64,000 bases of DNA from Escherichia coli. Lineage in GTDB: Bacteria > Pseudomonadota > Gammaproteobacteria > Enterobacterales > Enterobacteriaceae. Location of the stretch: NCBI RefSeq assembly GCF_036507355.1, contig NZ_AP027877.1; one strand, written 5' to 3'. The translations under genes and the position numbers were made by a program. Positions 25,644 to 52,806 of this stretch are shown piece after piece; positions within the stretch are counted from its first letter, which is position 1; every line of letters starts with the position of its first letter. The notes beneath the pieces were generated by a model. It ran no database searches. It worked only from the letters and a program-made list of their open reading frames with translations, and had not been told where the DNA came from.

Positions 25644-25730
25644 GCCCGGATGGTGGAATCGGTAGACACAAGGGATTTAAAATCCCTCGGCGTTCGCGCT
25701 GTGCGGGTTCAAGTCCCGCTCCGGGTACCA
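25644..25730 (+). tRNA. leuZ: tRNA-Leu (anticodon UAA), integration target of the island
   Basis: GCCCGGATGGTGGAATCGGTAGACACAAGGGATTTAAAATCCCTCGGCG...CCGGGTACCA, long variable arm. Confidence 0.95.
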
Positions 25731-25805
25731 TGGGAAACATCAGAATAATCAAAGCAATAAGCAGTGTCGTGAAACCACCTTCGGGTGGTTTTTTTGTGCA
25801 TGCAA
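25675..25805 (+). repeat. Left direct repeat (attL): 3' half of tRNA-Leu plus downstream terminator
   Basis: About 131 bp repeated with a few mismatches and a 2-bp indel at 51890-52022. Confidence 0.85.
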
Positions 25806-35436: not shown

Positions 35437-36564
35437 TCATTTTGTGTCATAACTTTCTATGACCTGAGAAACCACTGCGTGTGATGTCGCTGCATTGTGA
35501 AAAGCGTAGCGACGGGTCGCCGTGAGTGAATGGTGATTTAGCAGATGGGAAGCGATTGCAATATCCCCGGTCGCCTGTAGTACCCGGGTGGCAAAGGTAC
35601 GGCGCAGGTCATGCATCCGCAGGTTATCAATGTTGGCATCCCGACAAATACGGGCAAAGGTTGCACGCGGATATGCCAGAGGGCGGGCATTGTCGGTTAG
35701 TTGTGGAAAAATGTAAGTTTTGCTGAGCATCAGGTCCTGCTGGCACTGGACAACTGCAATGGCTGGAAGTGCAAGTGGGCAGGTGAAAGGGTGTCCGGAC
35801 TTTGTATCAGGCAGTATGAGTTGATGCATATCCGGGTGCCAGTACTCCCATTTCAGGGTACATACCTCACCAATACGCATCCCCGTATAAAGAGCAAGCA
35901 ATATAGAATCAGCTGCCGGTGTTTGCAGCGCTGTTGCTGCGTTAATAAAGCGCGGGATTTCTGTCGCTGACAGTGTGCGATAGCGAATGTTATTTTCTTT
36001 CAGATAGCGGACATGTGACATCGGGGAATGTGTGATCCATCCAGCACGTACTGCCAGAGAGCATATTTTGGACAATATTGCGAGGATACGGTTTACTGTT
36101 GACGGACGTAATTTTTCCCGTAAGCCAGCAGCATATTGTTCTAGTTCTCCTGCCGTGATGTCGCGAAGTTGCCGCTTGCCCCAGAACGGGCGAACGTAGA
36201 GGTTGAGTTTTGACAACTCTGACTGAGGACTCTTTTTATACAACTGCAAATCCGGTAGCCACAGGTCATTGATGGCCTGTTCCACAGTGAATCGACGGGA
36301 CTGAACAGCAAGGCGATTTTTATCGGCAAGCAGGTTCATCACATGCTGACGGGCATCCTCAATGCAGAGATGAGGGAATTCACCCAGTGTTTCATATATA
36401 CGTTGATTTTTGATGGTGGCGCGAAAGGCCAGCGTGATCCGTTTTGGATATACCAGTGCACGCAGGTTTTGGCACTGAATATCACGGTATTCCTGACAAC
36501 CCGTGAGGGGATGTGGAAGTTGGTGAATTGATTTGTTGCTGAAACGCAGATCCAGAATAGGCAT
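35437..36564 (-). CDS. Second tyrosine recombinase / integrase
   Basis: Catalytic HDLRRTFATRV (HxxR) and TRRYAF (Tyr), plus core-binding-like N-terminal region. Confidence 0.85.
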   Translation of the reverse strand: MPILDLRFSNKSIHQLPHPLTGCQEYRDIQCQNLRALVYPKRITLAFRATIKNQRIYETLGEFPHLCIEDARQHVMNLLADKNRLAVQSRRFTVEQAINDLWLPDLQLYKKSPQSELSKLNLYVRPFWGKRQLRDITAGELEQYAAGLREKLRPSTVNRILAILSKICSLAVRAGWITHSPMSHVRYLKENNIRYRTLSATEIPRFINAATALQTPAADSILLALYTGMRIGEVCTLKWEYWHPDMHQLILPDTKSGHPFTCPLALPAIAVVQCQQDLMLSKTYIFPQLTDNARPLAYPRATFARICRDANIDNLRMHDLRRTFATRVLQATGDIAIASHLLNHHSLTATRRYAFHNAATSHAVVSQVIESYDTK

Positions 36565-36706: not shown

Positions 36707-37837
36707 CTACAGTTTCATGATCTTGTTCGCTATTTTTTCGAAGTAAACCTCATTCTTAAGAAGAGTGATATTGTTAGTTTGAACACCCAGACCACTGGAG
36801 GTTGACTGGAAGTTGAGTGAACCACTTATCACGGTGGACTTTCCTGATAAAAATGAAATCAACTCCTTGGAAGATGGTGCCCACTCAGGGTTTAAGAGTA
36901 ATGCAATGTAGATATATGTCTTACGAAGCAATTGTTCGATATCTTTTTTATACCCCGTAGTGTTTTGCTTACCTTTAATGCAAATTGATTTGATTATGAA
37001 CTCATCAGGGCTGGTTAAAGGCGTTTTAAACTTATTCAGTGATCCATCGTTATGAATGACTTCATAAGGCAGCATAGATAAAATGATCAATGCAATCATT
37101 TTAGGATGATAAAGGTAGTTATCACGAATGATTTTTCCTGCCTTCATTGTATTGAGTGTTGTTTGAATAAATACAAAAAGATATTCAGAGCAAAAGTAAC
37201 AAAACACAAGCCAGGATAGGTCAATGGCTGGAATGTTAATATCCTTAGGTAGTTTGTTTAGCCAGTATTCAGACTTCAAAAAGGTCCTGATTTCAACAGT
37301 ATATTCATGCATTTTTGCGCTGAAATCAAGCATTGCTACTTGACCTGATTGTTCCGTAACTGTGTGGTCTATAAATGTTAGTGTATTGCACATTTTATCC
37401 AGCGTGTTTTGAAAACAAGAAAGGAGTTCGGCATTATTATTACCATTAACCGCAGATGAAAGTTCAGTTGCAATAAATGCATCCAGTAGCATACAGATTT
37501 TTTTCGGAATGACATTTTTACGGGATTGCTGTGAATAGAAATATACTGCCAGTAAATTAAAGGCAGTGCACTCCTTTTTTAACCATTGTTCGAGCACTGG
37601 GACGTGCTGAAAAAAATTGATATGCTTAGCAGTAGATGCTGATGGAGATAGTACATGAAGAATATCTACAGCAGGCTTCATTTGCAATATTTGATCGGAT
37701 TCGGTAGTCGTCATTAGTTCCAGTAATTGCTGTTCAGAAAATAGTTTAGACAGGTGATCAATGTCTTTTTGGTATTGGTTAAGTTTTTTTAAATTCCCCG
37801 GTACACGGGTTACATTGTTTTTCATTTTCTCGAACAT
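36707..37837 (-). CDS. Hypothetical protein (376 aa), AT-rich orphan
   Basis: Long ORF in visibly AT-rich DNA; no motif recognised. Confidence 0.55.
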   Translation of the reverse strand: MFEKMKNNVTRVPGNLKKLNQYQKDIDHLSKLFSEQQLLELMTTTESDQILQMKPAVDILHVLSPSASTAKHINFFQHVPVLEQWLKKECTAFNLLAVYFYSQQSRKNVIPKKICMLLDAFIATELSSAVNGNNNAELLSCFQNTLDKMCNTLTFIDHTVTEQSGQVAMLDFSAKMHEYTVEIRTFLKSEYWLNKLPKDINIPAIDLSWLVFCYFCSEYLFVFIQTTLNTMKAGKIIRDNYLYHPKMIALIILSMLPYEVIHNDGSLNKFKTPLTSPDEFIIKSICIKGKQNTTGYKKDIEQLLRKTYIYIALLLNPEWAPSSKELISFLSGKSTVISGSLNFQSTSSGLGVQTNNITLLKNEVYFEKIANKIMKL

Positions 37838-38239: not shown

Positions 38240-39475
38240 TTAAAAGGAAATAAACAGAGCCTTTCGCCGATGAATCAATGTGCTGATTTCCCTCAAATCA
38301 GCCTCAATACTACCAACATCACCAAAGACTTCACCTCTAATCTCACTTCGATTTTTCATGAAATTGGTGCTTAATAAGCTTTCTTTTTTTAATGCCATTA
38401 ATTTTGGTTTTATATCGTTATAGAAATGCTTACGGCTTACCCTGATGCTATGAATCGAGTAGTAAACTGTTTTATACATCAAAAATATAAGTAACTGGCC
38501 GAGAAGATATTCTTTTTCAATGTATTTATATTGAGAGGATTTTTCGCGTTTCGCCAGGTAGAAAACATGAGGTGCGATGATGGTGGGGATAAAATCCAGT
38601 GCTGGAGAGGTTTTGGTTTTTTCTGTTTCTCTTCCGGATTGAAGATGTTGAAGTACAGAGTATACAATGCTTAAAATTATGGCGTTACTTATATTATTAA
38701 TTGCAGTTGGGTAAATATGCAGATTGCTTATCAATTCTGAAAGGCAAAGTAAAACACCAGTGATGTTGGGTTTTCTGCCGGAGATTGTGGTGCTGTTGAA
38801 AATGTGACGATTCTTACGACTTATATTGACAAGTTTATGAGTGCAGAACTCTATATGTTCGACGATTTTATCTTGACTATTTTTAATGTATTTTGAAATG
38901 TTAGTGATCCGGCCATTCAACGTTAGTTCATCAAGCAATATATCATTTTTAATATTGCGAATTTCATCGCAATGTTCACATTGAGAAACTATCTCATGTA
39001 ATACATAACTCGAAGTATTGCGTGACGATGCTGATATGTAATCTAAAATGGAATGCTCGACTTTGATTTTTTGTTTGTATTTTTTAATGCACTGTTTGAT
39101 TGTTTTTTGTAGAGTATTTGAGATGTGTTTTTTATATTCTTTTAGAAAATCTTGCTCTAAAAAGAGTGAGGAGAAGATCAACTGCTGGCGAGATAATTTA
39201 ATCTCAGGCTTGATCAATTTAATCCGAAAAACTCTTCCCTCCAACTCATAGCTGAACATGGAAGATAAGTCATAGTGGGGTGATAAATGTTCGAGTAACG
39301 ACATTCGTGTATTCATTAGCCGCTTGAATTTATGGTCAGCATACATAAGTGTTTTTTTTATTTGCTCATCATAAAGTGGGCCGATAGCGCAGTTGGCAAT
39401 ACTCATTCTATCCGGAGACCTCCAGTCAGCAGGGGAATCACATTGACGGTCATCATTACTATCAAAGGGCATCAA
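38240..39475 (-). CDS. Hypothetical protein (411 aa), AT-rich orphan
   Basis: Long ORF in visibly AT-rich DNA; no motif recognised. Confidence 0.55.
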   Translation of the reverse strand: MMPFDSNDDRQCDSPADWRSPDRMSIANCAIGPLYDEQIKKTLMYADHKFKRLMNTRMSLLEHLSPHYDLSSMFSYELEGRVFRIKLIKPEIKLSRQQLIFSSLFLEQDFLKEYKKHISNTLQKTIKQCIKKYKQKIKVEHSILDYISASSRNTSSYVLHEIVSQCEHCDEIRNIKNDILLDELTLNGRITNISKYIKNSQDKIVEHIEFCTHKLVNISRKNRHIFNSTTISGRKPNITGVLLCLSELISNLHIYPTAINNISNAIILSIVYSVLQHLQSGRETEKTKTSPALDFIPTIIAPHVFYLAKREKSSQYKYIEKEYLLGQLLIFLMYKTVYYSIHSIRVSRKHFYNDIKPKLMALKKESLLSTNFMKNRSEIRGEVFGDVGSIEADLREISTLIHRRKALFISF

Positions 39476-39778: not shown

Positions 39779-41302
39779 ATGAACGACAAAATCAGTCAGG
39801 ACACGATCAACAAAGCCCTGTGGGCCGCGTGTGATACGTTCCGTGGCACCATCAGTGCTGATACCTATAAAGACTTTATCCTTACCATGCTGTTCCTCAA
39901 GTACATTTCAGATGTCTGGCAGGATCACTACGACGAATATAAAGTGCAATATGGCGATGCGCCGGAACTGATTGAAGCGATGATGGCGAACGAGCGCTTC
40001 GTGTTGCCGAAAAGCGCCAGTTTCTATGCGTTGTACGAGCGACGTCATGAGCCGGGCAACGGTGAGCGTATCGATCAGGCGCTGCATGCGATTGAAGAAG
40101 CCAACGGCACCAAACTGAAAGATGCCGGGAAAAGTGTCTTCCAGGATATTTCGTTTAACACTGACCGTCTGGGCGAAGAAAAACAGAAGAACACCATCCT
40201 GCGTCAGTTGCTGGAAGACTTTGCCGGTGAAGATCTTAACCTGAAGCCAAGCCGTGTCGGTACGCTGGACGTTATCGGTAATGCTTACGAATATCTGATC
40301 AAAAACTTTGCTGCCAGCGGTGGGCAGAAAGCCGGGGAATTCTATACCCCGCCGGAAGTTTCGGACCTGATTGCTGAACTGCTCGATCCGCAACCGGGTG
40401 ATACCATCTGCGATCCGGCCTGTGGTTCGGGTTCATTGTTGATGAAGTGTGGGCGTAAAATTGTCTCCGGGCATGATAGTCGTAACTATGCATTGTTCGG
40501 TCAGGAAGCGATCGGTTCTACGTGGTCGCTGGCGAAAATGAATATGTTCCTGCACGGGGAAGACAACCATAAAATCGAGTGGGGCGATACCATTCGTAAC
40601 CCGAAGCTGCTCGATAAAAATGGCGACCTGATGCTGTTTGATATCGTGACCGCTAACCCACCGTTCAGCCTCGATAAGTGGGGCCATGACGAGGCCGAGA
40701 ACGATAAGTTTGGCCGTTTTCGTCGCGGTGTACCGCCGAAGACTAAAGGAGATTACGCTTTTATCTCGCATATGATCGAAACCCTGAAACCGGGAACTGG
40801 CCGTATGGGCGTAGTTGTGCCACACGGTGTGCTTTTCCGTGGCTCCAGCGAAGGTAAAATTCGCCAGAAACTGATCGACGAAAATTTGCTGGATGCGGTA
40901 ATTGGTCTGCCGGAAAAACTGTTCTACGGTACGGGGATTCCGGCTGCGATTCTGATTTTTAAAAAGCAGAAAGTTGATGACAAGGTGCTGTTTATCGATG
41001 CCAGCCGTGAATTCAAGGCAGGTAAAAACCAGAACCAGCTTAGCGAAGAAAACATTAAGAAAATCGTCAAGACCTACCGTGATGGCGATAACGTCGAGAA
41101 ATACGCCTATCTTGCCAGCCTGAAGGAAATTCAGGACAACGACTATAATCTCAATATCCCGCGCTATGTCGATACCTTTGAAGAAGAGGATGAGATTGAC
41201 CTGCTGGCGGTGCGAGCAGAACGCGAGCAACTGAAGGCGGAATTGGCGAAGCTGGAAACGGAGATGGCTGGATATTTGAAGGAGTTGGGTTATGGCTCGT
41301 GA
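39779..41302 (+). CDS. hsdM: Type I restriction-modification methyltransferase subunit HsdM
   Basis: N6-adenine MTase motifs (DPACGSGS, TANPPFS), 507 aa. Confidence 0.92.
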   Translation: MNDKISQDTINKALWAACDTFRGTISADTYKDFILTMLFLKYISDVWQDHYDEYKVQYGDAPELIEAMMANERFVLPKSASFYALYERRHEPGNGERIDQALHAIEEANGTKLKDAGKSVFQDISFNTDRLGEEKQKNTILRQLLEDFAGEDLNLKPSRVGTLDVIGNAYEYLIKNFAASGGQKAGEFYTPPEVSDLIAELLDPQPGDTICDPACGSGSLLMKCGRKIVSGHDSRNYALFGQEAIGSTWSLAKMNMFLHGEDNHKIEWGDTIRNPKLLDKNGDLMLFDIVTANPPFSLDKWGHDEAENDKFGRFRRGVPPKTKGDYAFISHMIETLKPGTGRMGVVVPHGVLFRGSSEGKIRQKLIDENLLDAVIGLPEKLFYGTGIPAAILIFKKQKVDDKVLFIDASREFKAGKNQNQLSEENIKKIVKTYRDGDNVEKYAYLASLKEIQDNDYNLNIPRYVDTFEEEDEIDLLAVRAEREQLKAELAKLETEMAGYLKELGYGS

Positions 41303-42566
41303 TTCGCTTTACCCAGTGAGCGTTAAAGCTGGAAAACCGATCCTTGGAATGCTACCTACAGGATGGCAAAAGTTATCATTAGAAAAGTGCTTAAATATAG
41401 AGGCAAGAAAGGCATATATACAAGATAATCAAGAGTATGACTTAGTTACAGTAAAGCGCTCCAGAGGTGGCGTAATAAGACGTGAGCATCTTAAAGGAAA
41501 AGATATCTCCGTAAAAAGTCAATTCTATATTAAAGAAGGCGACTTTCTCATATCAAAACGACAAATTGTGCACGGTGCTTGCGGTCTTGTACCTAAAGAA
41601 CTTTCTGGCTCAATTGTATCGAATGAATATTGTGTGCTTACAGGGAAGTCCGGTTTTTATCTTCCTTATATGGAATTTCTATCGGAGTCTCTATATTTCC
41701 AGCAAACCTGCTTCCACTCTAGCATTGGTGTGCACATAGAGAAAATGATTTTTAAGTTAGATAGTTGGTTTAAGTGGCCATTTAATATCCCCCCACTGTC
41801 TGAACAAAAGAGAATCGTTAAAATCCTGTCAACCTGGGATAAGGCGATTTCGGTGACGGAAAAGCTTCTCACCAACAGTCAGCAGCAGAAAAAAGCCCTG
41901 ATGCAGCAATTGCTTACCGGGAAAAAACGCTTGCTGGATGAGAGGGGGGTGAGGTTTAGTGGGGAGTGGAAGAGAGTAAAACTGGGTGCGATAGCCGATA
42001 TGAACAGTGGAGGTACTCCGAAATCAACGGTTGAAGAGTATTATGGCGGGAATATCCCATGGGTATCTATTTCTGATATGACATCTAATGGAAAGTGGAT
42101 TGCTACAACTGAAAAATATCTGACTGAATTAGGATTGAACAGTTCATCCGCAAGAATATATCCAAAAAACTCGGTTCTTTATGCTATGTATGCTTCTATA
42201 GGTGAATGCAGCATTGCTGCTGTAAATTTAACATCTTCGCAGGCAATCTTGGGTATTAGACCAAAAGATTGTTTAAATTATGAGTTTTTATATTTCTATC
42301 TTACATCATTAAAAGAAAAAATAAAACTGCAAGGCCAGCAAGGTACACAGTCCAACCTAAACGCCGGAATGGTTAAAGAGTTTGAACTAGACTTACCCAG
42401 TATAAGAGAACAACAAAAAATCGCCGCCGTCCTGTCCGTCGCCGATGCCGAAATCTCCACGCTGGAGAAAAAACTCGCCTGCCTGAGAGATGAGAAAAAA
42501 GCCCTGATGCAACAGCTACTGACTGGCAAACGTCGTGTTAAGGTCGATGAGGCGGTTGCCGAATGA
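41292..42566 (+). CDS. hsdS: Type I R-M specificity subunit HsdS
   Basis: Two target-recognition domains separated by repeated conserved helices (KKALMQQLLTGKKRL / KKALMQQLLTGKRRV); overlaps hsdM. Confidence 0.9.
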   Translation: MARDSLYPVSVKAGKPILGMLPTGWQKLSLEKCLNIEARKAYIQDNQEYDLVTVKRSRGGVIRREHLKGKDISVKSQFYIKEGDFLISKRQIVHGACGLVPKELSGSIVSNEYCVLTGKSGFYLPYMEFLSESLYFQQTCFHSSIGVHIEKMIFKLDSWFKWPFNIPPLSEQKRIVKILSTWDKAISVTEKLLTNSQQQKKALMQQLLTGKKRLLDERGVRFSGEWKRVKLGAIADMNSGGTPKSTVEEYYGGNIPWVSISDMTSNGKWIATTEKYLTELGLNSSSARIYPKNSVLYAMYASIGECSIAAVNLTSSQAILGIRPKDCLNYEFLYFYLTSLKEKIKLQGQQGTQSNLNAGMVKEFELDLPSIREQQKIAAVLSVADAEISTLEKKLACLRDEKKALMQQLLTGKRRVKVDEAVAE

Positions 42567-43246
42567 AACTGACGAAAAGCGGTCCACTGACTGACCGGGA
42601 AATCGACTGGCTGGAAGAAATATTAATGAAGTATGGAATGGATGATTCTGTACTCTGTTTCTCTGAGCTGGATGGATTGCTGACGGCGATTTTATCAGGT
42701 CCAAATATGGTTTCACCCAATATCTGGCTGAGTGCTATTTGGGGAGGAGGCGATTATCATCCGAAATGGTCATCTGAGAGAGAGATGGAGCGTTTTGTCA
42801 GTCTGTGTTTTCAGCATATGAACGATATCGCTGGTTGCCTTTATGACGCCCCTGAACTGTTTGAGCCGATTTTCAATGAGCGTGAGGTAAAGGGGGAAAA
42901 ATATACCATTGTGGAAGAGTGGTGTTTTGGTTATATGAAAGGAAAGTCACTGGATGACTGGTCTGGTCTTCCCGGTGAGTTACGGCCTTCTCTGGAAGTG
43001 ATCGCTCTTCATGGCGTGGAGAAGAATTTTCCTGTACTTGAGAAAATGACCAGAGAGCAGTTTGAGAAAAGTATTTCCCTTATTAAGCCTGCTGCACTGG
43101 CACTTTATCAGTACTGGTTGTCAGTGAGAATGTCAGAGGCATCATCCCGGCCTGTTCCAGTGAAGGGGGCAGAAAACATGCCCGGGCGAAATGACCCGTG
43201 TCCGTGTGGCAGCGGTAAAAAATTTAAGAAGTGCTGTCTGCATTGA
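42563..43246 (+). CDS. YecA-like UPF0149 protein with C-terminal SEC-C metal-binding motif, nested in the hsd operon
   Basis: Aligns along its length with chromosomal YecA at 52141-52806; ends [20 protein letters not shown]; ATGA overlap with the hsdS stop. Confidence 0.8.
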   Translation: MKLTKSGPLTDREIDWLEEILMKYGMDDSVLCFSELDGLLTAILSGPNMVSPNIWLSAIWGGGDYHPKWSSEREMERFVSLCFQHMNDIAGCLYDAPELFEPIFNEREVKGEKYTIVEEWCFGYMKGKSLDDWSGLPGELRPSLEVIALHGVEKNFPVLEKMTREQFEKSISLIKPAALALYQYWLSVRMSEASSRPVPVKGAENMPGRNDPCPCGSGKKFKKCCLH

Positions 43247-43295
43247 TGAATCTTCATGTGACCAGTAGCGAGTAGCGCCAGAAAGAAAAGGATTA

Positions 43296-46200
43296 ATGAT
43301 GAACCAGACGTACACGCCTAAATTCCAGGAAGAATACAGCGCCAAAATTCCGGCACTGACGTTACTGACCAGCCTCGGCTGGACGTTTTTATCTCCGAAA
43401 CAGATTATGGATTACCGGGGCTATAAACAGGATGAGGTGGTGCTGCGTCCGGTTCTGCGTGAAGAGCTGTCGAAGCGTTCCTTTATGGCGGGTGGCAAAA
43501 CCTGCCAGTTATCGGAAAAAGCACTGGATAACCTGATATCACAGGTCTGTTCTCCGGCGCTGAATGAAGGGCTGCTCAAAGCCAATGAACGGATGTATAA
43601 CCATCTGCTCTACGGTATCGCCGTCACGGAGTTTGTCGATGGCAAGAAGGTGAACCCCACCATTGCGCTGATCGACTGGGAACATCCGGAAAGTAACCAG
43701 TTCCATTTTACCGAAGAATTTACGGTATTGCGGTCAGGCGGTGTCGAAACCCGCAGGCCGGATATTGTGTGTTTTGTGAATGGTATCCCGCTGGCCGTCA
43801 TTGAAGCGAAAAGCCCGGCGGGTCACGGCAAGAAAGGGCCAACCATTGACGAAGGGATATCCCAGAGTATCCGCAATCAGCTCAACGACGAAATCCCGCA
43901 GCTGTTTGCTTACAGCCAGATATTACTGTCGATTAACGGGCATGACGGGCGCTACGGTACCTGTCATACACCAATGAAATTCTGGGCGGCATGGCGCGAA
44001 GAAGATATTACTTACGCGCAGATGTATGCGCTGCGCAACCATAAGTTATCGACTGAACAAATTCATGCGTTGTTTGATGATCGTCCTTCAGTCGATCTCA
44101 AATGGTATCAACAGTTAATCGATGGGGGGGAACTGGCAGTCAGCGGGCAGGATAAGCTGCTCATCAGTCTGCTTTCACCGGAACGTCTGCTGGAGATGAC
44201 CCGCTTCTTCACCCTGTTTGATAAAAAAACCGGAAAAATTGTTGCCCGCTATCAGCAGGTGTTCGGTATTAAAAGACTGCTGGAACGCATCAGTACCCGC
44301 AGACCAGACGGGGGCAGGGAAGGTGGGGTGATCTGGCATACCACGGGGTCAGGTAAATCTTACACCATGGTATTCCTCAGCAAGGCGCTGATTCTTCATG
44401 ACAGCCTGAAGCAGTGTCGTATTGTGGTGGTGACGGACCGCGTGGACCTTGAAGGGCAGCTCAGCGGCACTTTTGTCTCTGGTGGCGAACTGGCAGGGAA
44501 GGATGATAAGGCCAAAGCGATGGCAACCTCAGGTCAGAAGCTGGCACAGCAGATTGGCTCTGGTAAAGAACGTATAATCTTTACCCTTATCCAGAAATTT
44601 AACTCAGCGACAAAATTGCCTGAATGCGTCAACACCAGCCCCGACATCATCGTTCTGATTGATGAAGGACACCGTAGCCAGGGTGGTGAGAACCATGTGC
44701 GAATGAAACTGGCACTGCCGAACGCCGCCTTTGTGGCATTTACTGGTACGCCATTGCTAAAAGAAGATAAGACCACCAATAAATTCGGGCCGATTGTCCA
44801 CGCTTATACCATGCAGCGAGCGGTAGAAGATAAAGCCGTTACACCTTTGCTGTATGAAGAACGTATTCCCGACCTTGAGGTTAACGATCGGGCAATAGAT
44901 GCCTGGTTTGATCGTATTACCGATGGGTTAAGCGAAGCGCAAAAAGCCGACCTTAAGCGTAAATATGCCCGTAAAGGTGAGGTTTATAGTGCAGATGATC
45001 GCATCCGTCTGATCGCACTCGATATCGCCACGCACTTCTCGAAGAATATTGATGAGGGGCTGAAAGGCCAGCTTGCCTGCGACAGCAAGATTTCCGCCAT
45101 CAAATATAAAAAGTATCTTGATGAAGCCGGGTTGTTTGAGTCAGCAGTAGTTATCAGCCCGCCGGATACCCGGGAAGGGAATACCGAAGTGGATGAAAGC
45201 AAACTGCCGGAAGTGACGAAATGGTGGAAGGATAATGTCGGCACGCAGGATGAGTCTGTGTATACCCGTAATATCATCAGTCGTTTCGATACCGATGAGA
45301 AGCTCAAATTGCTGATAGTCGTTGATAAACTGCTCACCGGGTTTGATGAGCCGAAGAATACCGTGCTGTATATCGACAAGCCGCTTAAGTCCCACAACCT
45401 TATCCAGGCGATTGCGCGGGTGAACCGACTGCATCCACTAAAAAAGTTCGGTCTGCTGATTGATTATCGCGGTATTCTGGCTGAGCTGGACACGACTATC
45501 GGCAAATATCAGGACCTCGCCTCCCGAACTCAGGGCGGATACGATATCAAAGATATTGACGGGCTGTACAGCGCCATGAGCTCTGAATACAAGCGCCTGC
45601 CGCATCTGTATAACCAGCTGTGGGCCATATTTGCCGGTGTTAAAAACAAAAATGATACTGAGCAGTTACGTGCGGTACTGGTGCCTAAAATGGAAGAACG
45701 TGACGGAGAGATGGTCGATATCCATCAGAAAACCCGTGATGATTTCTTCGAGGCGTTAACGGCCTTTGCCGGATGCCTGAAAGTGGCACTGCAGTCCGCT
45801 ACCTTCTTCACCGACAAGAGCTTTACGGAACAAGACCGAAATCTCTATAAAGAAACCGTAAAACAGATGTCCAGCCTGCGCCAGTGGGCGATGCAGGTAA
45901 GTGGAGAGCAGGTCAATTATGACGACTACGCTGAGCAGGTGAAAAAACTGCTGGATAAGCATGTCACCGGCGTTGAGGTTCGTGAACCGGATGGCGTGTA
46001 TGAAGTCGGTAAAATGGGCAAGAGCGAAAAGCCCGAAGAGTGGGACAACAATAAAACCCGCAATGAAACCGACATCATTAAAACCCGCGTGACGAAGATG
46101 ATTGAGCAGGAATTGCGTGATGACCCGTATGCTCAGGAGGCATTTTCAAAACTCCTGCGTATGGCTATCGAAGAGGCTGAAAAACTGTTTGACCATCCGC

Positions 46201-46583
46201 TGAAACAGTACCTTTTGTTCCGTGAATTTGAAGAACAGGTTGAAGCCCGTAAGCTCAGCGATATCCCGGATGCACTGGCGGTAAACAAGCATGCTCAGGC
46301 GTATTACGGTGTATTTAAAAAAGAGCTACCTGAGGTTTTTGCGGTAAACGACGTTCAGGTGCAGGATAAGTGGACCAAGCTGGCTTTTGAAGTGGACAAC
46401 ATTATCGTCAAAGCGGTGGCAGAAAACTCCCTGAACCCCCAGGACATTGAGAAAGTCGTTAAGACAAGTCTGCTACCACTGCTGTTTACGGCCTGCCGGG
46501 AAATTGGTGCCGGAATGAATCAGGTTAACCGTATTGTGGAAACCATCATCCAGATACTGCGCGTTGGTTTGATGAAATCATGA
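43296..46583 (+). CDS. hsdR: Type I restriction endonuclease subunit HsdR
   Basis: 1095 aa; Walker A TGSGKSYT and DEAH-like box DEGHRS. Confidence 0.92.
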   Translation: MMNQTYTPKFQEEYSAKIPALTLLTSLGWTFLSPKQIMDYRGYKQDEVVLRPVLREELSKRSFMAGGKTCQLSEKALDNLISQVCSPALNEGLLKANERMYNHLLYGIAVTEFVDGKKVNPTIALIDWEHPESNQFHFTEEFTVLRSGGVETRRPDIVCFVNGIPLAVIEAKSPAGHGKKGPTIDEGISQSIRNQLNDEIPQLFAYSQILLSINGHDGRYGTCHTPMKFWAAWREEDITYAQMYALRNHKLSTEQIHALFDDRPSVDLKWYQQLIDGGELAVSGQDKLLISLLSPERLLEMTRFFTLFDKKTGKIVARYQQVFGIKRLLERISTRRPDGGREGGVIWHTTGSGKSYTMVFLSKALILHDSLKQCRIVVVTDRVDLEGQLSGTFVSGGELAGKDDKAKAMATSGQKLAQQIGSGKERIIFTLIQKFNSATKLPECVNTSPDIIVLIDEGHRSQGGENHVRMKLALPNAAFVAFTGTPLLKEDKTTNKFGPIVHAYTMQRAVEDKAVTPLLYEERIPDLEVNDRAIDAWFDRITDGLSEAQKADLKRKYARKGEVYSADDRIRLIALDIATHFSKNIDEGLKGQLACDSKISAIKYKKYLDEAGLFESAVVISPPDTREGNTEVDESKLPEVTKWWKDNVGTQDESVYTRNIISRFDTDEKLKLLIVVDKLLTGFDEPKNTVLYIDKPLKSHNLIQAIARVNRLHPLKKFGLLIDYRGILAELDTTIGKYQDLASRTQGGYDIKDIDGLYSAMSSEYKRLPHLYNQLWAIFAGVKNKNDTEQLRAVLVPKMEERDGEMVDIHQKTRDDFFEALTAFAGCLKVALQSATFFTDKSFTEQDRNLYKETVKQMSSLRQWAMQVSGEQVNYDDYAEQVKKLLDKHVTGVEVREPDGVYEVGKMGKSEKPEEWDNNKTRNETDIIKTRVTKMIEQELRDDPYAQEAFSKLLRMAIEEAEKLFDHPLKQYLLFREFEEQVEARKLSDIPDALAVNKHAQAYYGVFKKELPEVFAVNDVQVQDKWTKLAFEVDNIIVKAVAENSLNPQDIEKVVKTSLLPLLFTACREIGAGMNQVNRIVETIIQILRVGLMKS

Positions 46584-47335
46584 GTGAAAAAGAATCGCCA
46601 TCAATGAAAGCGTTACGCATTGTCTATGGTGATGATGTCATCACCGTACAGTGTGTTCCGCGTCAGGTCGTAAAGGGCAGGGTGCTCATCAAGGTTTATC
46701 CGGACTGCCGGGTTGTGGCCTCTGTACCGCCTGAAACACCGGAGCACGAGGTATTGTCTGCGCTGAAAAAAAGAGGGCGCTGGATATACCAGCAACTGCG
46801 TGATTTCAGGGAGCAACAGACACACATTGTTCCGCGTCAGTATGTCAGCGGAGAAAGCCATTATTATCTCGGTAAGCAATATCAGTTGAAAGTGACAGAA
46901 GACGCTACTGTGCCGCAACGAGTGAAAATGTTGCGTGGGCGTCTGGAAGTGACTGTCAGACACAAATCGGCAGAAAAGATTAAAGCCTTGCTGGCTGAAT
47001 GGTATCGGGAACGTGCCAGAGATGTTTTTCAGCGCAGGCTTGATTTACTGATTCCGCAGACCCTTTGGGTCAGTGAGCGTCCTCCGATACGTCTGCGGGC
47101 GATGCAAACGCAATGGGGCAACTGTTCAGCAAAAGGCTGTCTGACCCTGAATCCATGGCTGGTTAAGGCATCCTCAGAATGTATCGATTATGTTTTGCTA
47201 CATGAGTTATGCCATGTGGCTGAGCACAACCACAGCGAGGAGTTTTACCGTCTGATGGGGCAGGTTATGCCTGGGTGGGAAAAGGTCAAGAAACGACTGG
47301 ATGGGATGGCTGGGATGTTGTTGGCTGATATGTAA
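46580..47335 (+). CDS. HExxH zinc metallopeptidase (M48/YgjP-like) after hsdR
   Basis: HELCH motif; ATGA overlap with the hsdR stop. Confidence 0.7.
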   Translation: MSEKESPSMKALRIVYGDDVITVQCVPRQVVKGRVLIKVYPDCRVVASVPPETPEHEVLSALKKRGRWIYQQLRDFREQQTHIVPRQYVSGESHYYLGKQYQLKVTEDATVPQRVKMLRGRLEVTVRHKSAEKIKALLAEWYRERARDVFQRRLDLLIPQTLWVSERPPIRLRAMQTQWGNCSAKGCLTLNPWLVKASSECIDYVLLHELCHVAEHNHSEEFYRLMGQVMPGWEKVKKRLDGMAGMLLADM

Positions 47336-47393
47336 CTTATCAATATGAGTTCTTAAGGGTTTGGTCAGTCTCGTTAATGTAGGGAGTATAATA

Positions 47394-49232
47394 ATGAGTA
47401 AGTTAGATAATAAAATTGAAGCACGCCATCGTAATTTGTTTGATGTTCTAAATGCGCAAAAATATACCGTTGATTACTTTCAGCGCGAGTATAGCTGGGG
47501 TGAGAAACATATTGAAGAGTTGGTTACAGACTTAACATCTGCGTTTCTCAATGAATACACCGTCGGTGATTCTCGGGAGCAGGGTGAAAACTACAATAAT
47601 TATTACTTAGGACCATTTGTTGTGAGTAGTAAAGATGGGAAACGGAGTATTATTGATGGTCAGCAACGACTGACTTCATTAACTTTATTTCTAATTTACC
47701 TCCATAACCTTCAGAAAGAACTTAAATATGAAGAGAAAATAGAATCAATGATTTTCTCCGAGTTACGTGGCAGCAAATCATTCAATATAGTAGTTGAAGA
47801 CAGAATACCTTGCATGGAAGCATTGTTTAATTTTGGTAGCTATAGTTTAGTTGATGGGGATGATGAGTCAACCCATAACATGGTGGAGAGATATCAGAAT
47901 ATCACAGATGCTTTTCCTGATGAATTAAAAGGTCAGGCTTTTCCTTTTTTTATCGACTGGCTTAAGTATAACGTTATTATGGTTGAGATAGTTGCCTATT
48001 CAGATGAAAACGCATATACCATCTTTGAGACTATGAATGACCGAGGATTAAATCTTACTCCGTCCGAAATGCTTAAAGGTTTTTTACTTTCACGCTTTCA
48101 TCAGGGAGATAAACGCCAAAAGGTAAATGAACTCTGGAAAAAAGCGATGATGGATTTAAAAAACTATGATAAAGATGAAGACCAACGTTTTTTCCAGTCA
48201 TGGTTGCGTGCTCAATATGCTGATACAATACGCCCGGGTAAAGCTGGTTCAAAAAATGAAGACTTTGAAAAAATAGGTACGCGTTTTCATAGCTGGGTTA
48301 GAGATAATCTTCAGGCGGTGGGATTGGACCCAGATAATGGTGAGACATTCGAACGATTTATACAAAAAAACTTTTTGTTTTATTTGAATGCCTATACACA
48401 AATACTGAATGCTGAGAGAGCATTAACGCACCAACTGGAATATGTATTTTATATCCACCATTGGGGTATTGCACCTACTTTAAGTTTCCCTTTGATGTTG
48501 GCTCCATTAAATGTAGGTGACAGTCCTGATGCTGTGATAGCCAAAATAAACCTGGTGGCGCGCTATATTGAAACATTTGTTGTTCGTCGTTCTGTTAATT
48601 TCCGAAAATTCTCTGCCAGTTCTATTCGTTACACAATGTACAGTCTTGTTAAAGAAATTCGTGGTAAAAGTATTGAAGAATTAAAAGATTTGTTATCTAA
48701 GAAGTTATCCGAAATGCCAGATACTTTTGCAGGAATGGAAGAGTTTCGTCTCCATGGTCAAAACTATCGTTTTGTGAAGTTTTTGCTTTCTCGTATAACT
48801 GCGTGGGTTGAGCAGCAAGCCGGAATGAGTACAACCTTCATTACATATTATCAGCCAGAACACGGTAAGCCATTTGAAGTCGAGCATATTTGGGCCGATA
48901 AATATGAACGTTACTCTGATGAGTTTGAACAAGAGCACGAATTTAACAATTACAGAAATCGCTTAGGTGATTTGGTTTTATTACCTAGAGGCTCAAACCA
49001 GTCATATGGTGATTTGTGTTACGATCAAAAGCAACCTCATTACATCAAAGAGAATCTCCTGGCTAAATCGTTATGCCCATTGGCATATATGAATAACCCT
49101 AATTTCAATCAGTTGAGAAATGTATTCGGATTGCCTTTCAAACCACATGATTCATTTAAAAAACAAGATGTCGATGAACGACAGTCTTTGTATAAAATAA
49201 TTTGTGAGAATATTTGGGACCATAATTTATAG
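47394..49232 (+). CDS. GmrSD-like DUF262/DUF1524 nuclease (type IV restriction-like)
   Basis: N-terminal DGQQR hallmark (IIDGQQRLTSL) and C-terminal His-Me-finger-like FEVEHIWAD; GGGAG RBS before ATG 47394. Confidence 0.7.
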   Translation: MSKLDNKIEARHRNLFDVLNAQKYTVDYFQREYSWGEKHIEELVTDLTSAFLNEYTVGDSREQGENYNNYYLGPFVVSSKDGKRSIIDGQQRLTSLTLFLIYLHNLQKELKYEEKIESMIFSELRGSKSFNIVVEDRIPCMEALFNFGSYSLVDGDDESTHNMVERYQNITDAFPDELKGQAFPFFIDWLKYNVIMVEIVAYSDENAYTIFETMNDRGLNLTPSEMLKGFLLSRFHQGDKRQKVNELWKKAMMDLKNYDKDEDQRFFQSWLRAQYADTIRPGKAGSKNEDFEKIGTRFHSWVRDNLQAVGLDPDNGETFERFIQKNFLFYLNAYTQILNAERALTHQLEYVFYIHHWGIAPTLSFPLMLAPLNVGDSPDAVIAKINLVARYIETFVVRRSVNFRKFSASSIRYTMYSLVKEIRGKSIEELKDLLSKKLSEMPDTFAGMEEFRLHGQNYRFVKFLLSRITAWVEQQAGMSTTFITYYQPEHGKPFEVEHIWADKYERYSDEFEQEHEFNNYRNRLGDLVLLPRGSNQSYGDLCYDQKQPHYIKENLLAKSLCPLAYMNNPNFNQLRNVFGLPFKPHDSFKKQDVDERQSLYKIICENIWDHNL

Positions 49233-49290
49233 CAAAGTTAGGGTGTTAATTAATCTGTAATGGCATCATGATTTTTAAAAGGAGGTTGAA

Positions 49291-50418: not shown

Positions 50419-50522
50419 AGTAATATGACTGAGTGATGACGATCTTTTTTAAATTGTGGATTATTAGGCTGGTAATTGAAGCGCCGAATAGACAGATATT
50501 GGAATAAAAGGAGAATATTCAA

Positions 50523-51889: not shown

Positions 51890-52022
51890 ATTTAAAATCC
51901 CTCGGCGTTCGCGCTGTGCGGGTTCAAGTCCCGCTCCGGGTACCATGGGAAAGATAAGAATAAAATCAAAGCAATAAGCAGTGTCGTGAAACCACCTTCG
52001 GGTGGTTTTTTTGTGCCTGCAA
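51890..52022 (+). repeat. Right direct repeat (attR): copy of tRNA-Leu 3' half plus terminator
   Basis: Matches 25675-25805 with a few mismatches and a 2-bp indel; begins inside the anticodon arm, so no complete tRNA here. Confidence 0.85.
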
Positions 52023-52140: not shown

Positions 52141-52806
52141 ATGAAAACGGGACCGTTAAACGAAAGTGAGTTGGAATGGCTGGACGATATTCTGACCAAA
52201 TACAACACTGACCACGCCATCCTTGATGTGGCGGAGCTGGACGGTTTATTGACGGCGGTGTTGAGTTCTCCGCAAGAGATTGAACCGGCACAGTGGCTGG
52301 TTGCCGTGTGGGGTGGGGCTGACTATGTGCCGCGCTGGGCGTCAGAGAAAGAGATGACGCGCTTTATGAACCTGGCTTTTCAACATATGGCCGATACCGC
52401 AGAGCGTCTGAACGAATTCCCGGAGCAGTTTGAGCCGTTATTCGGCTTGCGAGAAGTTGATGGCAGCGAGCTGACGATTGTTGAGGAGTGGTGCTTTGGC
52501 TATATGCGGGGCGTGGCACTTTCTGACTGGTCAACATTGCCCGATTCGTTAAAACCAGCGCTGGAGGCGATAGCGCTGCACGGTACTGAGGAAAACTTCG
52601 AGCGGGTAGAGAAGATGTCGCCAGAAGCGTTTGAAGAGAGCGTAGATGCCATTCGACTGGCGGCGCTTGATCTACATGCGTACTGGATGGCGCATCCGCA
52701 GGAAAAAGCTGTTCAGCAACCGATCATAGCAGAAGAGAAACCGGGGCGTAACGATCCTTGCCCGTGCGGTAGTGGTAAGAAATTTAAGCAGTGCTGCCTG
52801 CATTAA
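52141..52806 (+). CDS. yecA: UPF0149 SEC-C-motif protein YecA
   Basis: 221 aa ending [20 protein letters not shown]; leuZ-adjacent position restored once the island is ignored. Confidence 0.9.

What the first reader, a model, noticed from the sequence alone, without database searches (positions are those of the whole stretch)
42563..43246. YecA paralogue (UPF0149, SEC-C motif) embedded between hsdS and hsdR
The 227-aa protein aligns along its whole length with chromosomal YecA (52141-52806), which lies just outside attR, including the terminal [15 protein letters not shown](K/Q)CCLH metal-binding motif. It overlaps the hsdS stop by 4 nt and lies 50 bp before hsdR, so it is part of the R-M transcript. 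This slot is where some type I loci carry an accessory gene such as the anticodon nuclease PrrC. I do not know of a described role for a YecA-like protein in restriction.
Basis: partly seen in the sequence, partly recalled or inferred. Interest (0 to 1): 0.7.

Follow-up and report, generated by a model that had tools for sequence, protein, structure and literature searches.

The report
YecA-like gene inside type I restriction operon
A diverged copy of the bacterial chaperone gene yecA is a fixed, translationally coupled extra gene in a mobile type I restriction-modification operon; it recurs in hundreds of genomes and plasmids and is already listed as an untested phage-defence candidate (PADLOC PDC-S12), but nobody knows what it does.

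Summary
ORF 42563-43246 (227 aa) overlaps the hsdS stop by 4 nt (ATGA) and lies 49 nt before hsdR. It is 57% identical over its full length to chromosomal YecA (52141-52806), including the C-terminal SecA-like metal-binding motif.

It is not a one-off. The same hsdS-yecA-like junction occurs in about 419 of 5426 complete E. coli genomes, about 346 plasmids (mostly Klebsiella IncF) and 8 of 8 other Enterobacterales species representatives that carry a clade member. The R-M-linked copies form their own clade (200/200 bootstraps; at least 74% identical to each other, at most 60% to any housekeeping YecA). They are under purifying selection (dN/dS 0.07-0.2). Stop/start overlap with hsdS is kept in 15 of 15 loci, across two hsdM families. 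Extra cargo inserts after this gene and never replaced it in the loci examined. A sister hsd lineage (Vibrio, Proteus) carries other genes in that slot.

The association is already catalogued. PADLOC model PDC-S12 ('guilt-by-embedding', untested) matches it, and a pipolin survey lists it. I found no functional study.

My best guess is an R-M-dependent, non-catalytic accessory in the PrrC-type slot that acts through protein binding and ribosome/SecB docking. Interest is moderate.

The parts
39779..41302 (+). hsdM (507 aa), first cistron of the coupled M-S-YecA-like block
   Evidence: NCBIfam TIGR00497 hsdM scores 283 bits. PADLOC MTase_I matches at E 3e-133. The gene overlaps hsdS by 11 nt.
41292..42566 (+). 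hsdS (424 aa), specificity subunit
   Evidence: PADLOC Specificity_I matches at E 1e-213. The target-recognition domains vary between operons (33-99% identity), while the C-terminal ...EKKALMQQLLTGKRRV motif is conserved.
42563..43246 (+). The finding: YecA-like gene (227 aa; UPF0149 domain, flexible linker, SecA-like metal-binding domain); a member of PADLOC PDC-S12
   Evidence: The AF2 model has pLDDT 89.9, with the linker at residues 196-203 disordered. The gene belongs to a distinct clade with 200/200 bootstrap support. dN/dS is 0.07-0.2. The ATGA overlap with hsdS is shown.
43247..43295 (+). 49-nt spacer before hsdR; the homologous position is where extra cargo genes are inserted in other operons
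   Evidence: There is no terminator-like site on the + strand here. Only a weak promoter-like match lies nearby, at 43118-43145 inside the yecA-like 3' end, and it is not above the shuffle expectation. Cargo in other loci: a 594-615-aa CSD protein in L007, L009 and L012, and GmrSD/HEC-06 in L022.
43296..46583 (+). hsdR (1095 aa)
   Evidence: NCBIfam TIGR00348 scores 461 bits. PADLOC REase_I scores 1363 bits.
46580..47335 (+). M48/YgjP-like HExxH metallopeptidase, overlapping the hsdR stop by 4 nt; second coupled block [hsdR>M48]
   Evidence: The ORF and overlap are. It is annotated as an M48 family metallopeptidase or SprT-family protein in homologous loci, with Pfam YgjP-like. No PADLOC or NCBIfam hit was found.
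52141..52806 (+). Housekeeping chromosomal yecA (221 aa), outside the island
   Evidence: NCBIfam PRK10396 scores 435 bits. It lies next to attR. The same position is annotated yecA in E. coli p10A.
25675..25805 (+). attL (3' half of tRNA-Leu-UAA plus downstream sequence)
51890..52022 (+). attR (97-98% identical repeat of attL)

Best explanation
SHOWN. The ORF is a real, selectively maintained gene. It encodes a diverged YecA/AscA-type protein with an all-helical UPF0149 protein-binding domain, a disordered linker and an intact SecA-like Cys4 metal-binding domain. It is a dedicated third cistron of the hsdM-hsdS module of a mobile type I R-M system. It is translationally coupled to hsdS, and within its clade it was found only at that junction.

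INFERRED, the mechanism I commit to. It is an R-M-dependent accessory in the PrrC sense, not a catalytic subunit and not required for restriction chemistry. Translational coupling produces it in a fixed ratio with HsdS. Its UPF0149 domain binds a protein partner, either the R-M complex or a phage or plasmid protein that interferes with restriction. Its metal-binding domain docks it on ribosomes or SecB, as shown for housekeeping YecA/AscA. In this way it adds a second, non-nucleolytic layer that senses or counteracts interference with restriction, with translation or nascent proteins as the likely point of action.
For: Gene reality and selection:
- dN/dS is 0.07-0.2 over pairs whose dS ranges from 0.07 to about 2.
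- 51 positions are conserved with housekeeping YecA, including all four metal ligands. The AF2 model has pLDDT 89.9.

Dedicated clade:
- The split has 200/200 NJ bootstrap support.
- All R-M-linked copies are at least 74% identical to the window copy, and all housekeeping copies are at most 60%.
- 10 positions are fixed differently in the clade.

Exclusive embedding:
- 8/8 species-representative loci carrying a clade member have it directly after hsdS, against 0/72 housekeeping loci.
- 29/30 sampled E. coli hits and all annotated sampled plasmid hits overlap 'restriction endonuclease subunit S'.

Coupling and slot:
- Stop/start overlap is present in 15/15 loci (ATGA or TGATG), across two hsdM families that are only 42% identical.
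- Additional cargo (a CSD protein, or GmrSD/HEC-06) is inserted downstream of it. It never replaced it in the loci examined.
- Slot equivalence: the sister hsd lineage carries an ABC-ATPase (PDC-S06) there.
- Because that sister lineage (HsdR 78% identical) lacks the gene, it is not needed for the enzyme itself.

Biochemical precedents:
- AscA/YecA binds ribosomes and SecB through the metal-binding domain and binds client proteins through its N-domain.
- UPF0149 proteins YgfB and MtvS act by binding AlpA and RNAP beta', and MtvS regulates a CRISPR-Cas locus.

Allele reshuffling:
- In shallow comparisons the gene's dS is 4-10 times that of hsdR, and there is an intragenic mosaic patch. This fits a locus under conflict-type or balancing pressure.
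Against: - There is no experimental evidence of any kind for a defence or R-M role. PDC-S12 is one of 145 explicitly untested candidates.
- The protein has no recognisable effector domain such as a nuclease, ATPase, TIR or pore. Pfam finds only UPF0149 and SEC-C. Foldseek against the PDB finds only the uncharacterised UPF0149-like lpg0076.
- Sequence variability along the protein tracks that of housekeeping YecA (Spearman 0.53), with no localised hypervariable surface. The elevated divergence could therefore be a by-product of recombination around hsdS.
- The conserved acidic HsdS tail is explained by the embedded ribosome-binding site and is not evidence of an interface.
- The same YecA-like allele class works next to HsdM proteins only 42% identical. 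This argues against a tightly co-evolved contact with HsdM or HsdR.
- Binding of this paralogue to ribosomes or SecB is extrapolated from a non-peer-reviewed preprint on the housekeeping protein.
Confidence: 0.38

Rival explanations
1. It is a chaperone or regulator dedicated to the R-M system. The YecA-like protein assists folding or assembly of HsdS/M2S1, or holds back HsdR. Alternatively, like MtvS and YgfB, it acts on the transcription machinery to delay hsdR expression. Either way, methylation would precede restriction when the plasmid or pipolin enters a naive host.
For: - It is the third cistron of the coupled [hsdM>hsdS>yecA-like] block and lies upstream of hsdR.
- The operon rides on conjugative IncF plasmids and integrative pipolins, which must establish themselves in unmodified hosts.
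- AscA has holdase activity.
- A UPF0149 protein regulates a CRISPR-Cas locus via RNAP.
- The gene is retained even when other cargo is present.
Against: - The sister lineage, with HsdR 78% identical and the same hsdM-hsdS-X-hsdR-YgjP layout, lacks it and is widespread in Vibrio, Proteus and Alteromonas. The enzyme family therefore does not need it.
- It is intact in Providencia, where hsdM is gone, hsdS is a remnant and HsdR is split. That decay is recent, however, and dN/dS there rests on only 17 differences.
- The same allele class serves two hsdM families only 42% identical.
Confidence: 0.25
2. It is an autonomous single-gene anti-phage system, which is the literal reading of PDC-S12. On this view it uses the hsd operon only as an expression platform and genomic shelter and is functionally independent of R-M.
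For: - Most genes embedded in type I R-M/BREX/DISARM that were tested by Payne et al. proved to be independent defences, 7 in total.
- The ORF stays intact next to GmrSD after decay of the R-M in Providencia.
- The island is packed with other defence genes: HEC-06, PDC-S26 and an Mrr-like gene.
Against: - No clade member was found outside the hsdS junction. Autonomous embedded systems such as GmrSD and Zorya are mostly found non-embedded.
- It has no effector domain.
- Strict translational coupling to hsdS is conserved.
Confidence: 0.15
3. It has no defence role. It would be a generic YecA/AscA-type chaperone captured once by an ancestral operon and kept because it benefits the mobile element or host in some other way (secretion, envelope stress), or simply through tight linkage and polar effects on hsdR expression.
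For: - It keeps every family-conserved residue and still scores above the NCBIfam equivalog cut-off for YecA.
- Its variability profile mirrors that of housekeeping YecA.
- YecA-family genes are also passengers of Tn3-family transposons in Xanthomonas and Pseudomonas. Mobile-element capture therefore need not imply defence.
Against: - Hosts already have a chromosomal yecA, as this window does.
- Purifying selection has held across dS values up to saturation, and the clade has fixed 10 clade-specific substitutions.
- It has never been lost from the intact operons sampled, even though frequent recombination reshuffles its alleles.
Confidence: 0.15

Closest known systems
PADLOC-DB candidate PDC-S12 (Payne, Hughes, Fineran and Jackson, bioRxiv 10.1101/2024.01.29.577857)
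   Same: The protein matches model PDLC04917 end to end (E 2e-99). The candidate class was defined from genes embedded in type I R-M/BREX/DISARM, which is exactly the arrangement seen here. 'Type 1 RM, PDC-S12' is reported as a frequent module of Enterobacterales pipolins.
   Different: PDC-S12 is an untested label with no mechanism. Its HMM scores housekeeping YecA higher (365 bits) than the embedded paralogue (330 bits). The model therefore does not separate the R-M-linked clade defined here from ordinary yecA.
Housekeeping YecA/AscA of E. coli (UPF0149 + SecA-like metal-binding domain)
   Same: The domain architecture is the same, identity is 57%, the metal-binding motif is near-identical (one K/Q difference in the 20-residue tail), and 51 positions are conserved. 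The reported activities of AscA are ribosome and SecB binding through the metal-binding domain and holdase activity.
   Different: The embedded copy belongs to a separate clade (200/200 bootstraps) and sits at a different locus, always after hsdS. It has a 3-residue N-terminal extension and clade-fixed changes D32C, V33F, E51S, R92C, G105N and R126K. It is carried on mobile elements. Whether it still binds SecB or ribosomes is untested.
PrrC / RloC anticodon nucleases embedded in type I R-M (EcoprrI)
   Same: The position is the same, between hsdS and hsdR. Like PrrC, it is almost exclusively embedded. The homologous slot in the sister hsd lineage holds an ABC-ATPase of the PrrC/RloC-like architecture (AAA_13/SMC_N, PDC-S06).
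   Different: It has no ABC-ATPase and no nuclease domain, and no PrrC model matches it. Silencing by the R-M complex and activation by an anti-restriction peptide are unknown here.
YgfB (P. aeruginosa) and MtvS (Francisella): UPF0149-only proteins
   Same: They share the UPF0149 fold, used as a protein-protein interaction module. [quoted passage not shown]
   Different: Those proteins lack the metal-binding domain, are chromosomal housekeeping genes, and act on AlpA or RNAP beta'. No evidence links the window protein to transcription.

Membership tests
YecA family (NCBIfam PRK10396; Pfam UPF0149 + SEC-C) | N-terminal UPF0149 domain | tested here: met
   Pfam PF03695 covers residues 15-185 at E 2e-30. 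TIGR02292 scores 127 bits.
YecA family (NCBIfam PRK10396; Pfam UPF0149 + SEC-C) | C-terminal SecA-like metal-binding domain with CxCx8CC ligands | tested here: met
   Pfam PF02810 covers residues 209-225 at E 4e-10. C213, C215, C224 and C225 are invariant across both clades.
YecA family (NCBIfam PRK10396; Pfam UPF0149 + SEC-C) | Score above the curated equivalog cut-off | tested here: met
   It scores 357 bits against a cut-off of 149; the chromosomal copy scores 435 bits.
Orthologue of housekeeping yecA/ascA | Falls in the housekeeping clade and occupies the conserved chromosomal position (pgsA - tRNA Gly/Cys/Leu - yecA) | tested here: not met
   It falls in a separate clade with 200/200 bootstrap support. 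It is located after hsdS in every locus. The true orthologue is at 52141-52806.
Orthologue of housekeeping yecA/ascA | Metal-binding-domain-dependent binding of SecB and ribosomes; holdase activity | not testable with these tools
   These activities are known only for E. coli AscA and only from a preprint.
PADLOC PDC-S12 | Match to HMM PDLC04917 | tested here: met
   E 2.4e-99, 330 bits, covering 218/218 model positions. Housekeeping YecA also matches, at 365 bits.
PADLOC PDC-S12 | Embedded within a type I R-M/BREX/DISARM system on the same strand | tested here: met
   It lies between hsdS and hsdR on the + strand, and the arrangement is recurrent.
PADLOC PDC-S12 | Anti-phage activity | not testable with these tools
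   The authors state that the 145 PDCs are untested. No paper testing it was found.
PrrC-type R-M guard (anticodon nuclease) | Gene located between hsdS and hsdR of a type I operon | tested here: met
   The sister lineage carries an ABC-ATPase in the same slot.
PrrC-type R-M guard (anticodon nuclease) | N-terminal ABC-ATPase and C-terminal anticodon-nuclease domain | tested here: not met
   Pfam finds only UPF0149 and SEC-C. PADLOC gives no PrrC or ABC-ATPase hit.
PrrC-type R-M guard (anticodon nuclease) | Kept latent by the R-M complex and activated by a phage anti-restriction factor | not testable with these tools
   This requires genetics or biochemistry.
Core subunit of the type I R-M enzyme family present here | Present in all lineages of the hsdM/hsdR family | tested here: not met
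   It is absent from operons with HsdR 78% identical in V. cholerae and Proteus mirabilis. It is present in operons with HsdR at 87% or more in Pantoea and Citrobacter.

The most novel reading that the evidence does not exclude
The embedded YecA-like protein is a new kind of R-M guard or second-layer effector with no enzymatic domain. It would be a ribosome- or SecB-docking holdase. One possibility is that it captures phage anti-restriction or early proteins co-translationally. Another is that, when the R-M complex is inhibited, it is released and blocks translation or secretion. Either way it would link the SecA-type metal-binding domain, which also appears at the C-termini of other defence-associated proteins (weak PADLOC E2 and E1-E2 hits), to antiviral immunity.
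Probability: 0.15. Interest if true: 0.8.

Novelty: already known. Interest (0 to 1): 0.4.

Why it matters
If the R-M-linked YecA clade has a defence or R-M-control function, it would be a rare case of a housekeeping, ribosome- and Sec-associated chaperone being recruited into immunity. It would also be an accessory factor with no catalytic effector, and it would give a function to the widespread SEC-C motif in conflict systems.

The operon sits on about 8% of complete E. coli genomes and on hundreds of Klebsiella IncF resistance plasmids. Any effect on plasmid establishment or phage resistance would therefore have practical relevance.

The present analysis also gives a concrete way to separate the R-M-linked clade from ordinary yecA, which the current PDC-S12 model does not do. 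Defence-system censuses that count PDC-S12 may be inflated by housekeeping yecA.

Tried and rejected
- Chance ORF or pseudogene: rejected on dN/dS, conserved length (226-227 codons in 15 loci) and recurrence.
- Recent local duplication of the adjacent chromosomal yecA: rejected. The embedded copy is 53-60% identical to all Enterobacterales YecA and forms its own clade. The adjacency comes from the island's tRNA-Leu integration site.
- One-off arrangement: rejected.
- Universal core subunit of this hsd family: rejected, because the sister lineage lacks it.
- Structure-based function lead: Foldseek against the PDB gave only the uncharacterised UPF0149-like lpg0076 (4gyt). A sequence search of the PDB matched only the metal-binding-domain peptides of SecA and YchJ.
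- Promoter and terminator scan: promoter-like sites are not above shuffle expectation, and there is no + strand terminator between the gene and hsdR. It is uninformative about a separate hsdR promoter.
- Localised hypervariable patch as a sign of an arms-race surface: not found. Entropy tracks that of the housekeeping family, and only the linker is hypervariable.
- Conserved acidic HsdS C-tail as a possible interface: explained by the embedded Shine-Dalgarno sequence of the downstream gene.
- Phage-borne copies: the only hits are host yecA at prophage record ends.
- Literature: the stored parts of the Payne et al. supplements do not contain the PDC-S12 row. Titheradge et al. 2001 (type ID gene organisation) is not held, so I did not assign the system to type I family A-E.
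- Relaxed selection after R-M decay in Providencia: only 17 substitutions, so inconclusive.
Full report
1. THE OBSERVATION

The window contains an ATG-initiated ORF at 42563-43246 (+), 227 aa. It begins inside the stop codon of hsdS (41292-42566), with the sequence ATGA giving a 4-nt overlap. It ends 49 nt before hsdR at 43296. RefSeq annotations of homologous loci start hsdR at the second ATG, three bases later.

BLASTP against the chromosomal yecA ORF (52141-52806) gives 57% identity over 223 residues, E 4e-99, with the tail [15 protein letters not shown](K/Q)CCLH shared. Pfam finds UPF0149 (residues 15-185) and SEC-C (209-225). The NCBIfam YecA equivalog scores 357 bits for this ORF, above its 149-bit cut-off, and 435 bits for the chromosomal copy.

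A 130-nt direct repeat at 25675-25805 and 51890-52022 covers the 3' half of tRNA-Leu(UAA). It delimits a 26.2-kb island, so the chromosomal yecA does lie just beyond attR.

2. SURROUNDINGS

The operon is made of two translationally coupled blocks:
- hsdM>hsdS>yecA-like, with overlaps of 11 nt and 4 nt.
- hsdR>M48/YgjP-like peptidase, with a 4-nt overlap.

The two blocks are separated by the 49-nt spacer.

Three more defence-type genes follow: DUF262/HEC-06, PD-(D/E)XK/PDC-S26 and an Mrr-like gene.

The island also has a tyrosine recombinase and an 887-aa ORF with a weak family-B polymerase signal. The homologous ORF is annotated 'DNA polymerase type-B family protein' in RefSeq. Together with integration at the tRNA-Leu between pgsA and yecA, this identifies the island as a pipolin.

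3. RECURRENCE

E. coli genomes:
- Megablast with the gene alone finds it in 419 of 5426 complete E. coli genomes.
- 29 of 30 rows sampled across the whole ranking overlap an annotated 'restriction endonuclease subunit S'.
- Queries with two divergent alleles recover subsets of similar size (313 and 410 genomes) and show no further allele class.
- hsdR of this lineage is in 552 genomes, and hsdM is in 555 (451 of them at 80% coverage or more).
- The excess includes decayed operons. In strain p10A, for example, hsdMS and the yecA-like gene are absent and an IS1 lies directly upstream of hsdR.
- Every operon inspected that retains hsdM, hsdS and hsdR carries the gene, including two with a frameshifted hsdS or hsdR.

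Plasmids:
- tblastn against PLSDB finds 346 plasmids with a copy at least 80% identical.
- Most are conjugative Klebsiella IncF plasmids, and the copy again abuts hsdS.

Species representatives:
- In the one-genome-per-species collection, 8 representatives carry a clade member at 74-84% identity: Franconibacter, a K. michiganensis plasmid, Intestinirhabdus, Enterobacter, two Buttiauxella, Morganella and C. freundii.
- All 8 have it directly after hsdS.
- None of 72 housekeeping yecA loci does.

Divergent cluster representatives show the same arrangement.

4. A DISTINCT, CONSTRAINED CLADE

The hit list has a clean gap. R-M-linked proteins are at least 74% identical to the window copy, and every housekeeping YecA is at most 60% identical. 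The clade is recovered in 200 of 200 NJ bootstraps.

It keeps 51 positions that are also conserved (at least 95%) in housekeeping YecA, including the four Cys ligands. It has 10 clade-fixed differences: a 3-residue N-terminal extension plus D32C, V33F, E51S, R92C, G105N and R126K.

Pairwise dN/dS is 0.07-0.2. In deep comparisons this is 2-4 times higher than for hsdM and hsdR (0.02-0.04), but it is still strongly purifying. The AF2 model is confident (pLDDT 89.9). It shows a helical UPF0149 domain with a beta-hairpin, a disordered linker at residues 196-203, and the small zinc-finger-like tail.

The embedded copy is about equally distant from all enterobacterial YecA proteins. It is therefore not a recent duplicate of the neighbouring chromosomal gene.

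5. ANATOMY OF THE SLOT

Stop/start overlap with hsdS is conserved in 15 of 15 loci, as ATGA in 11 and TGATG in 4.

The junction is also found downstream of an hsdS whose hsdM is only 42% identical, in Morganella. In Providencia the associated HsdR carries an EcoR124_C domain. The gene therefore travels with the hsdS 3' end across hsd families.

Extra cargo always lies between the yecA-like gene and hsdR, never between hsdS and the yecA-like gene. The cargo seen was:
- A 594-615-aa protein with a cold-shock domain and a Cys-rich C-terminus.
- A GmrSD/HEC-06 enzyme.

These are documented.

A sister lineage of the same hsd family is widespread in Vibrio, Proteus, Aeromonas and Alteromonas, with HsdR 78% identical and the same hsdM-hsdS-X-hsdR-YgjP layout. 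It has no yecA-like gene. Its slot holds a 643-aa unknown protein or an 855-aa ABC-ATPase (PADLOC PDC-S06). Pantoea and Citrobacter operons, with HsdR 87% identical, do carry the gene.

The gene is therefore a lineage-restricted but fixed occupant of the PrrC-type slot. It is not a universal subunit.

6. ALLELE RESHUFFLING

In operon pairs whose HsdM, HsdR and M48 are 97-99% identical, the YecA-like protein is only 84-92% identical. Its dS is 4-10 times that of hsdR.

The divergence is uncoupled from HsdS identity. Against L008, HsdS is 99% identical but the YecA-like protein is 92%. Against L010, HsdS is 34% identical but the YecA-like protein is 99%. Against a Klebsiella plasmid, the differences are confined to a patch at 42612-42790, roughly codons 17-76.

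Old alleles are therefore being recombined into otherwise near-identical operons. Site-wise variability tracks the housekeeping family (Spearman 0.53), and only the linker is hypervariable. I treat this as suggestive of conflict-type or balancing pressure, not as proof.

7. WHAT IS KNOWN

PADLOC-DB contains a model, PDC-S12, that matches the protein end to end. PDC candidates were derived by Payne et al. from genes embedded in type I R-M, BREX and DISARM, and the authors state that they are untested. A pipolin survey lists 'Type 1 RM, PDC-S12' among the frequent, recently exchanged defence modules of Enterobacterales pipolins. RefSeq annotates the gene as 'YecA family protein'.

I found no paper that tests it or links YecA to restriction.

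The PDC-S12 HMM scores housekeeping YecA higher (365 bits) than the embedded copy (330 bits). On its own it cannot distinguish the two.

Known biochemistry of relatives:
- AscA/YecA binds ribosomes and SecB through the metal-binding domain and acts as a holdase. This comes from a preprint.
- YgfB binds the antiterminator AlpA.
- The YgfB-like MtvS binds RNAP beta' and up-regulates a type V-A CRISPR-Cas locus.

8. MECHANISM

Shown: a real, constrained, R-M-dedicated paralogue that is translationally coupled to hsdS.

Inferred: everything about what it does.

I favour an R-M-dependent accessory role in the PrrC sense (confidence about 0.38), for four reasons:
- Exclusive embedding is the hallmark Payne et al. 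note for PrrC.
- The slot holds PrrC/RloC-like ATPases in the sister lineage.
- The enzyme family works without it.
- Its alleles are reshuffled.

With no catalytic domain, it would have to act by binding. The UPF0149 domain would bind a partner, either the R-M complex or a phage or plasmid interference protein. The metal-binding domain would dock on ribosomes or SecB.

The rivals are:
- A dedicated chaperone or regulator that orders methylation before restriction on entry into a new host (0.25).
- An autonomous single-gene defence (0.15).
- A non-defence passenger (0.15).

The deletion, mutant, stand-alone and establishment experiments listed under next steps separate these four.

9. VERDICT

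The finding is real and biologically coherent, but it is already catalogued as PDC-S12 and in the pipolin literature, so its novelty as an observation is low. What remains open is the function.

The analysis here adds several points:
- The R-M-linked copies form a discrete clade separable from housekeeping yecA.
- They are coupled to hsdS across two hsd families.
- They are fixed upstream of a variable cargo slot.
- They are dispensable for the enzyme family.
- They are subject to allele shuffling.

Interest is moderate (0.4). It would be high only if the non-enzymatic guard reading proves true.

Noticed in passing
L013 6001-6699; L014 5974-6687 (Xanthomonas and Pseudomonas plasmids): Distant YecA-family genes (25-30% identity) sit immediately downstream of a Tn3-family transposase, in a resolvase / RHH-PIN toxin-antitoxin / TnpA / YecA module. 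tblastn found more than 100 Xanthomonas plasmids with such distant hits, of which one Xanthomonas and one Pseudomonas context were inspected. This would be a second, independent capture of the family by mobile elements.
   Followed up: partly
L012 11430-13214; L007 3801-5585; L009 9644-11491: A 594-615-aa protein with an N-terminal cold-shock domain (Pfam E 3e-4) and a Cys-rich C-terminus lies between the yecA-like gene and hsdR. It appears in most sampled E. coli genomes of the 80-90% allele class (199 records), including ATCC 8739, and in Klebsiella IncF plasmids. It matches no PADLOC model, so it is an uncatalogued embedded gene.
   Followed up: partly
window 42563-43246 versus 52141-52806: The PADLOC PDC-S12 HMM scores housekeeping YecA (365 bits) above the R-M-embedded paralogue (330 bits). 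PDC-S12 calls in genome surveys may therefore largely be ordinary yecA.
   Followed up: partly
window 25675-52022: The 26.2-kb island at tRNA-Leu is a pipolin. It has 130-nt att repeats, a tyrosine recombinase (35437-36564, - strand) and an 887-aa piPolB-like ORF (31811-34474, - strand; weak Pfam DNA_pol_B_2). Two large ORFs upstream of hsdM on the opposite strand (36707-37837 and 38240-39475) have no NCBIfam hit.
   Followed up: partly
window 46580-47335: An M48/YgjP-like HExxH metallopeptidase overlaps the hsdR stop by 4 nt. It is conserved after hsdR in both the yecA-like-bearing lineage and the Vibrio/Proteus sister lineage. It has no PADLOC model and no assigned role in restriction.
   Followed up: no
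window 47361-51704: Three further defence-type genes follow the operon: DUF262/GmrSD-like (HEC-06, 47361-49232), a PD-(D/E)XK protein (PDC-S26, 49291-50418) and a protein with an Mrr-like C-terminal nuclease domain (50523-51704).
   Followed up: no
window 42612-42790 versus L008: An intragenic mosaic. Against a Klebsiella IncF plasmid operon that is otherwise about 99-100% identical, only codons ~17-76 of the yecA-like gene drop to 72-80% nucleotide identity.
   Followed up: partly
P0005, P0018, P0019 (ENA metagenome proteins): Three proteins are half housekeeping-like and half R-M-clade-like along their length. They are either assembly chimeras or real recombinants between the two yecA paralogues.
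   Followed up: no
L096 12072-13780; L097 13512-15220: In the Vibrio and Proteus sister islands the type I operon is followed by a CBASS-like pair (Cap15 effector and CD-NTase). In Proteus a DUF8370/DUF8371 protein is inserted between hsdR and the YgjP-like gene.
   Followed up: no
L009, L012, P0001 (metal-binding-domain motif): Some alleles read NDPCQCGSG instead of NDPCPCGSG in the metal-binding motif. The Cys ligands are retained.
   Followed up: no
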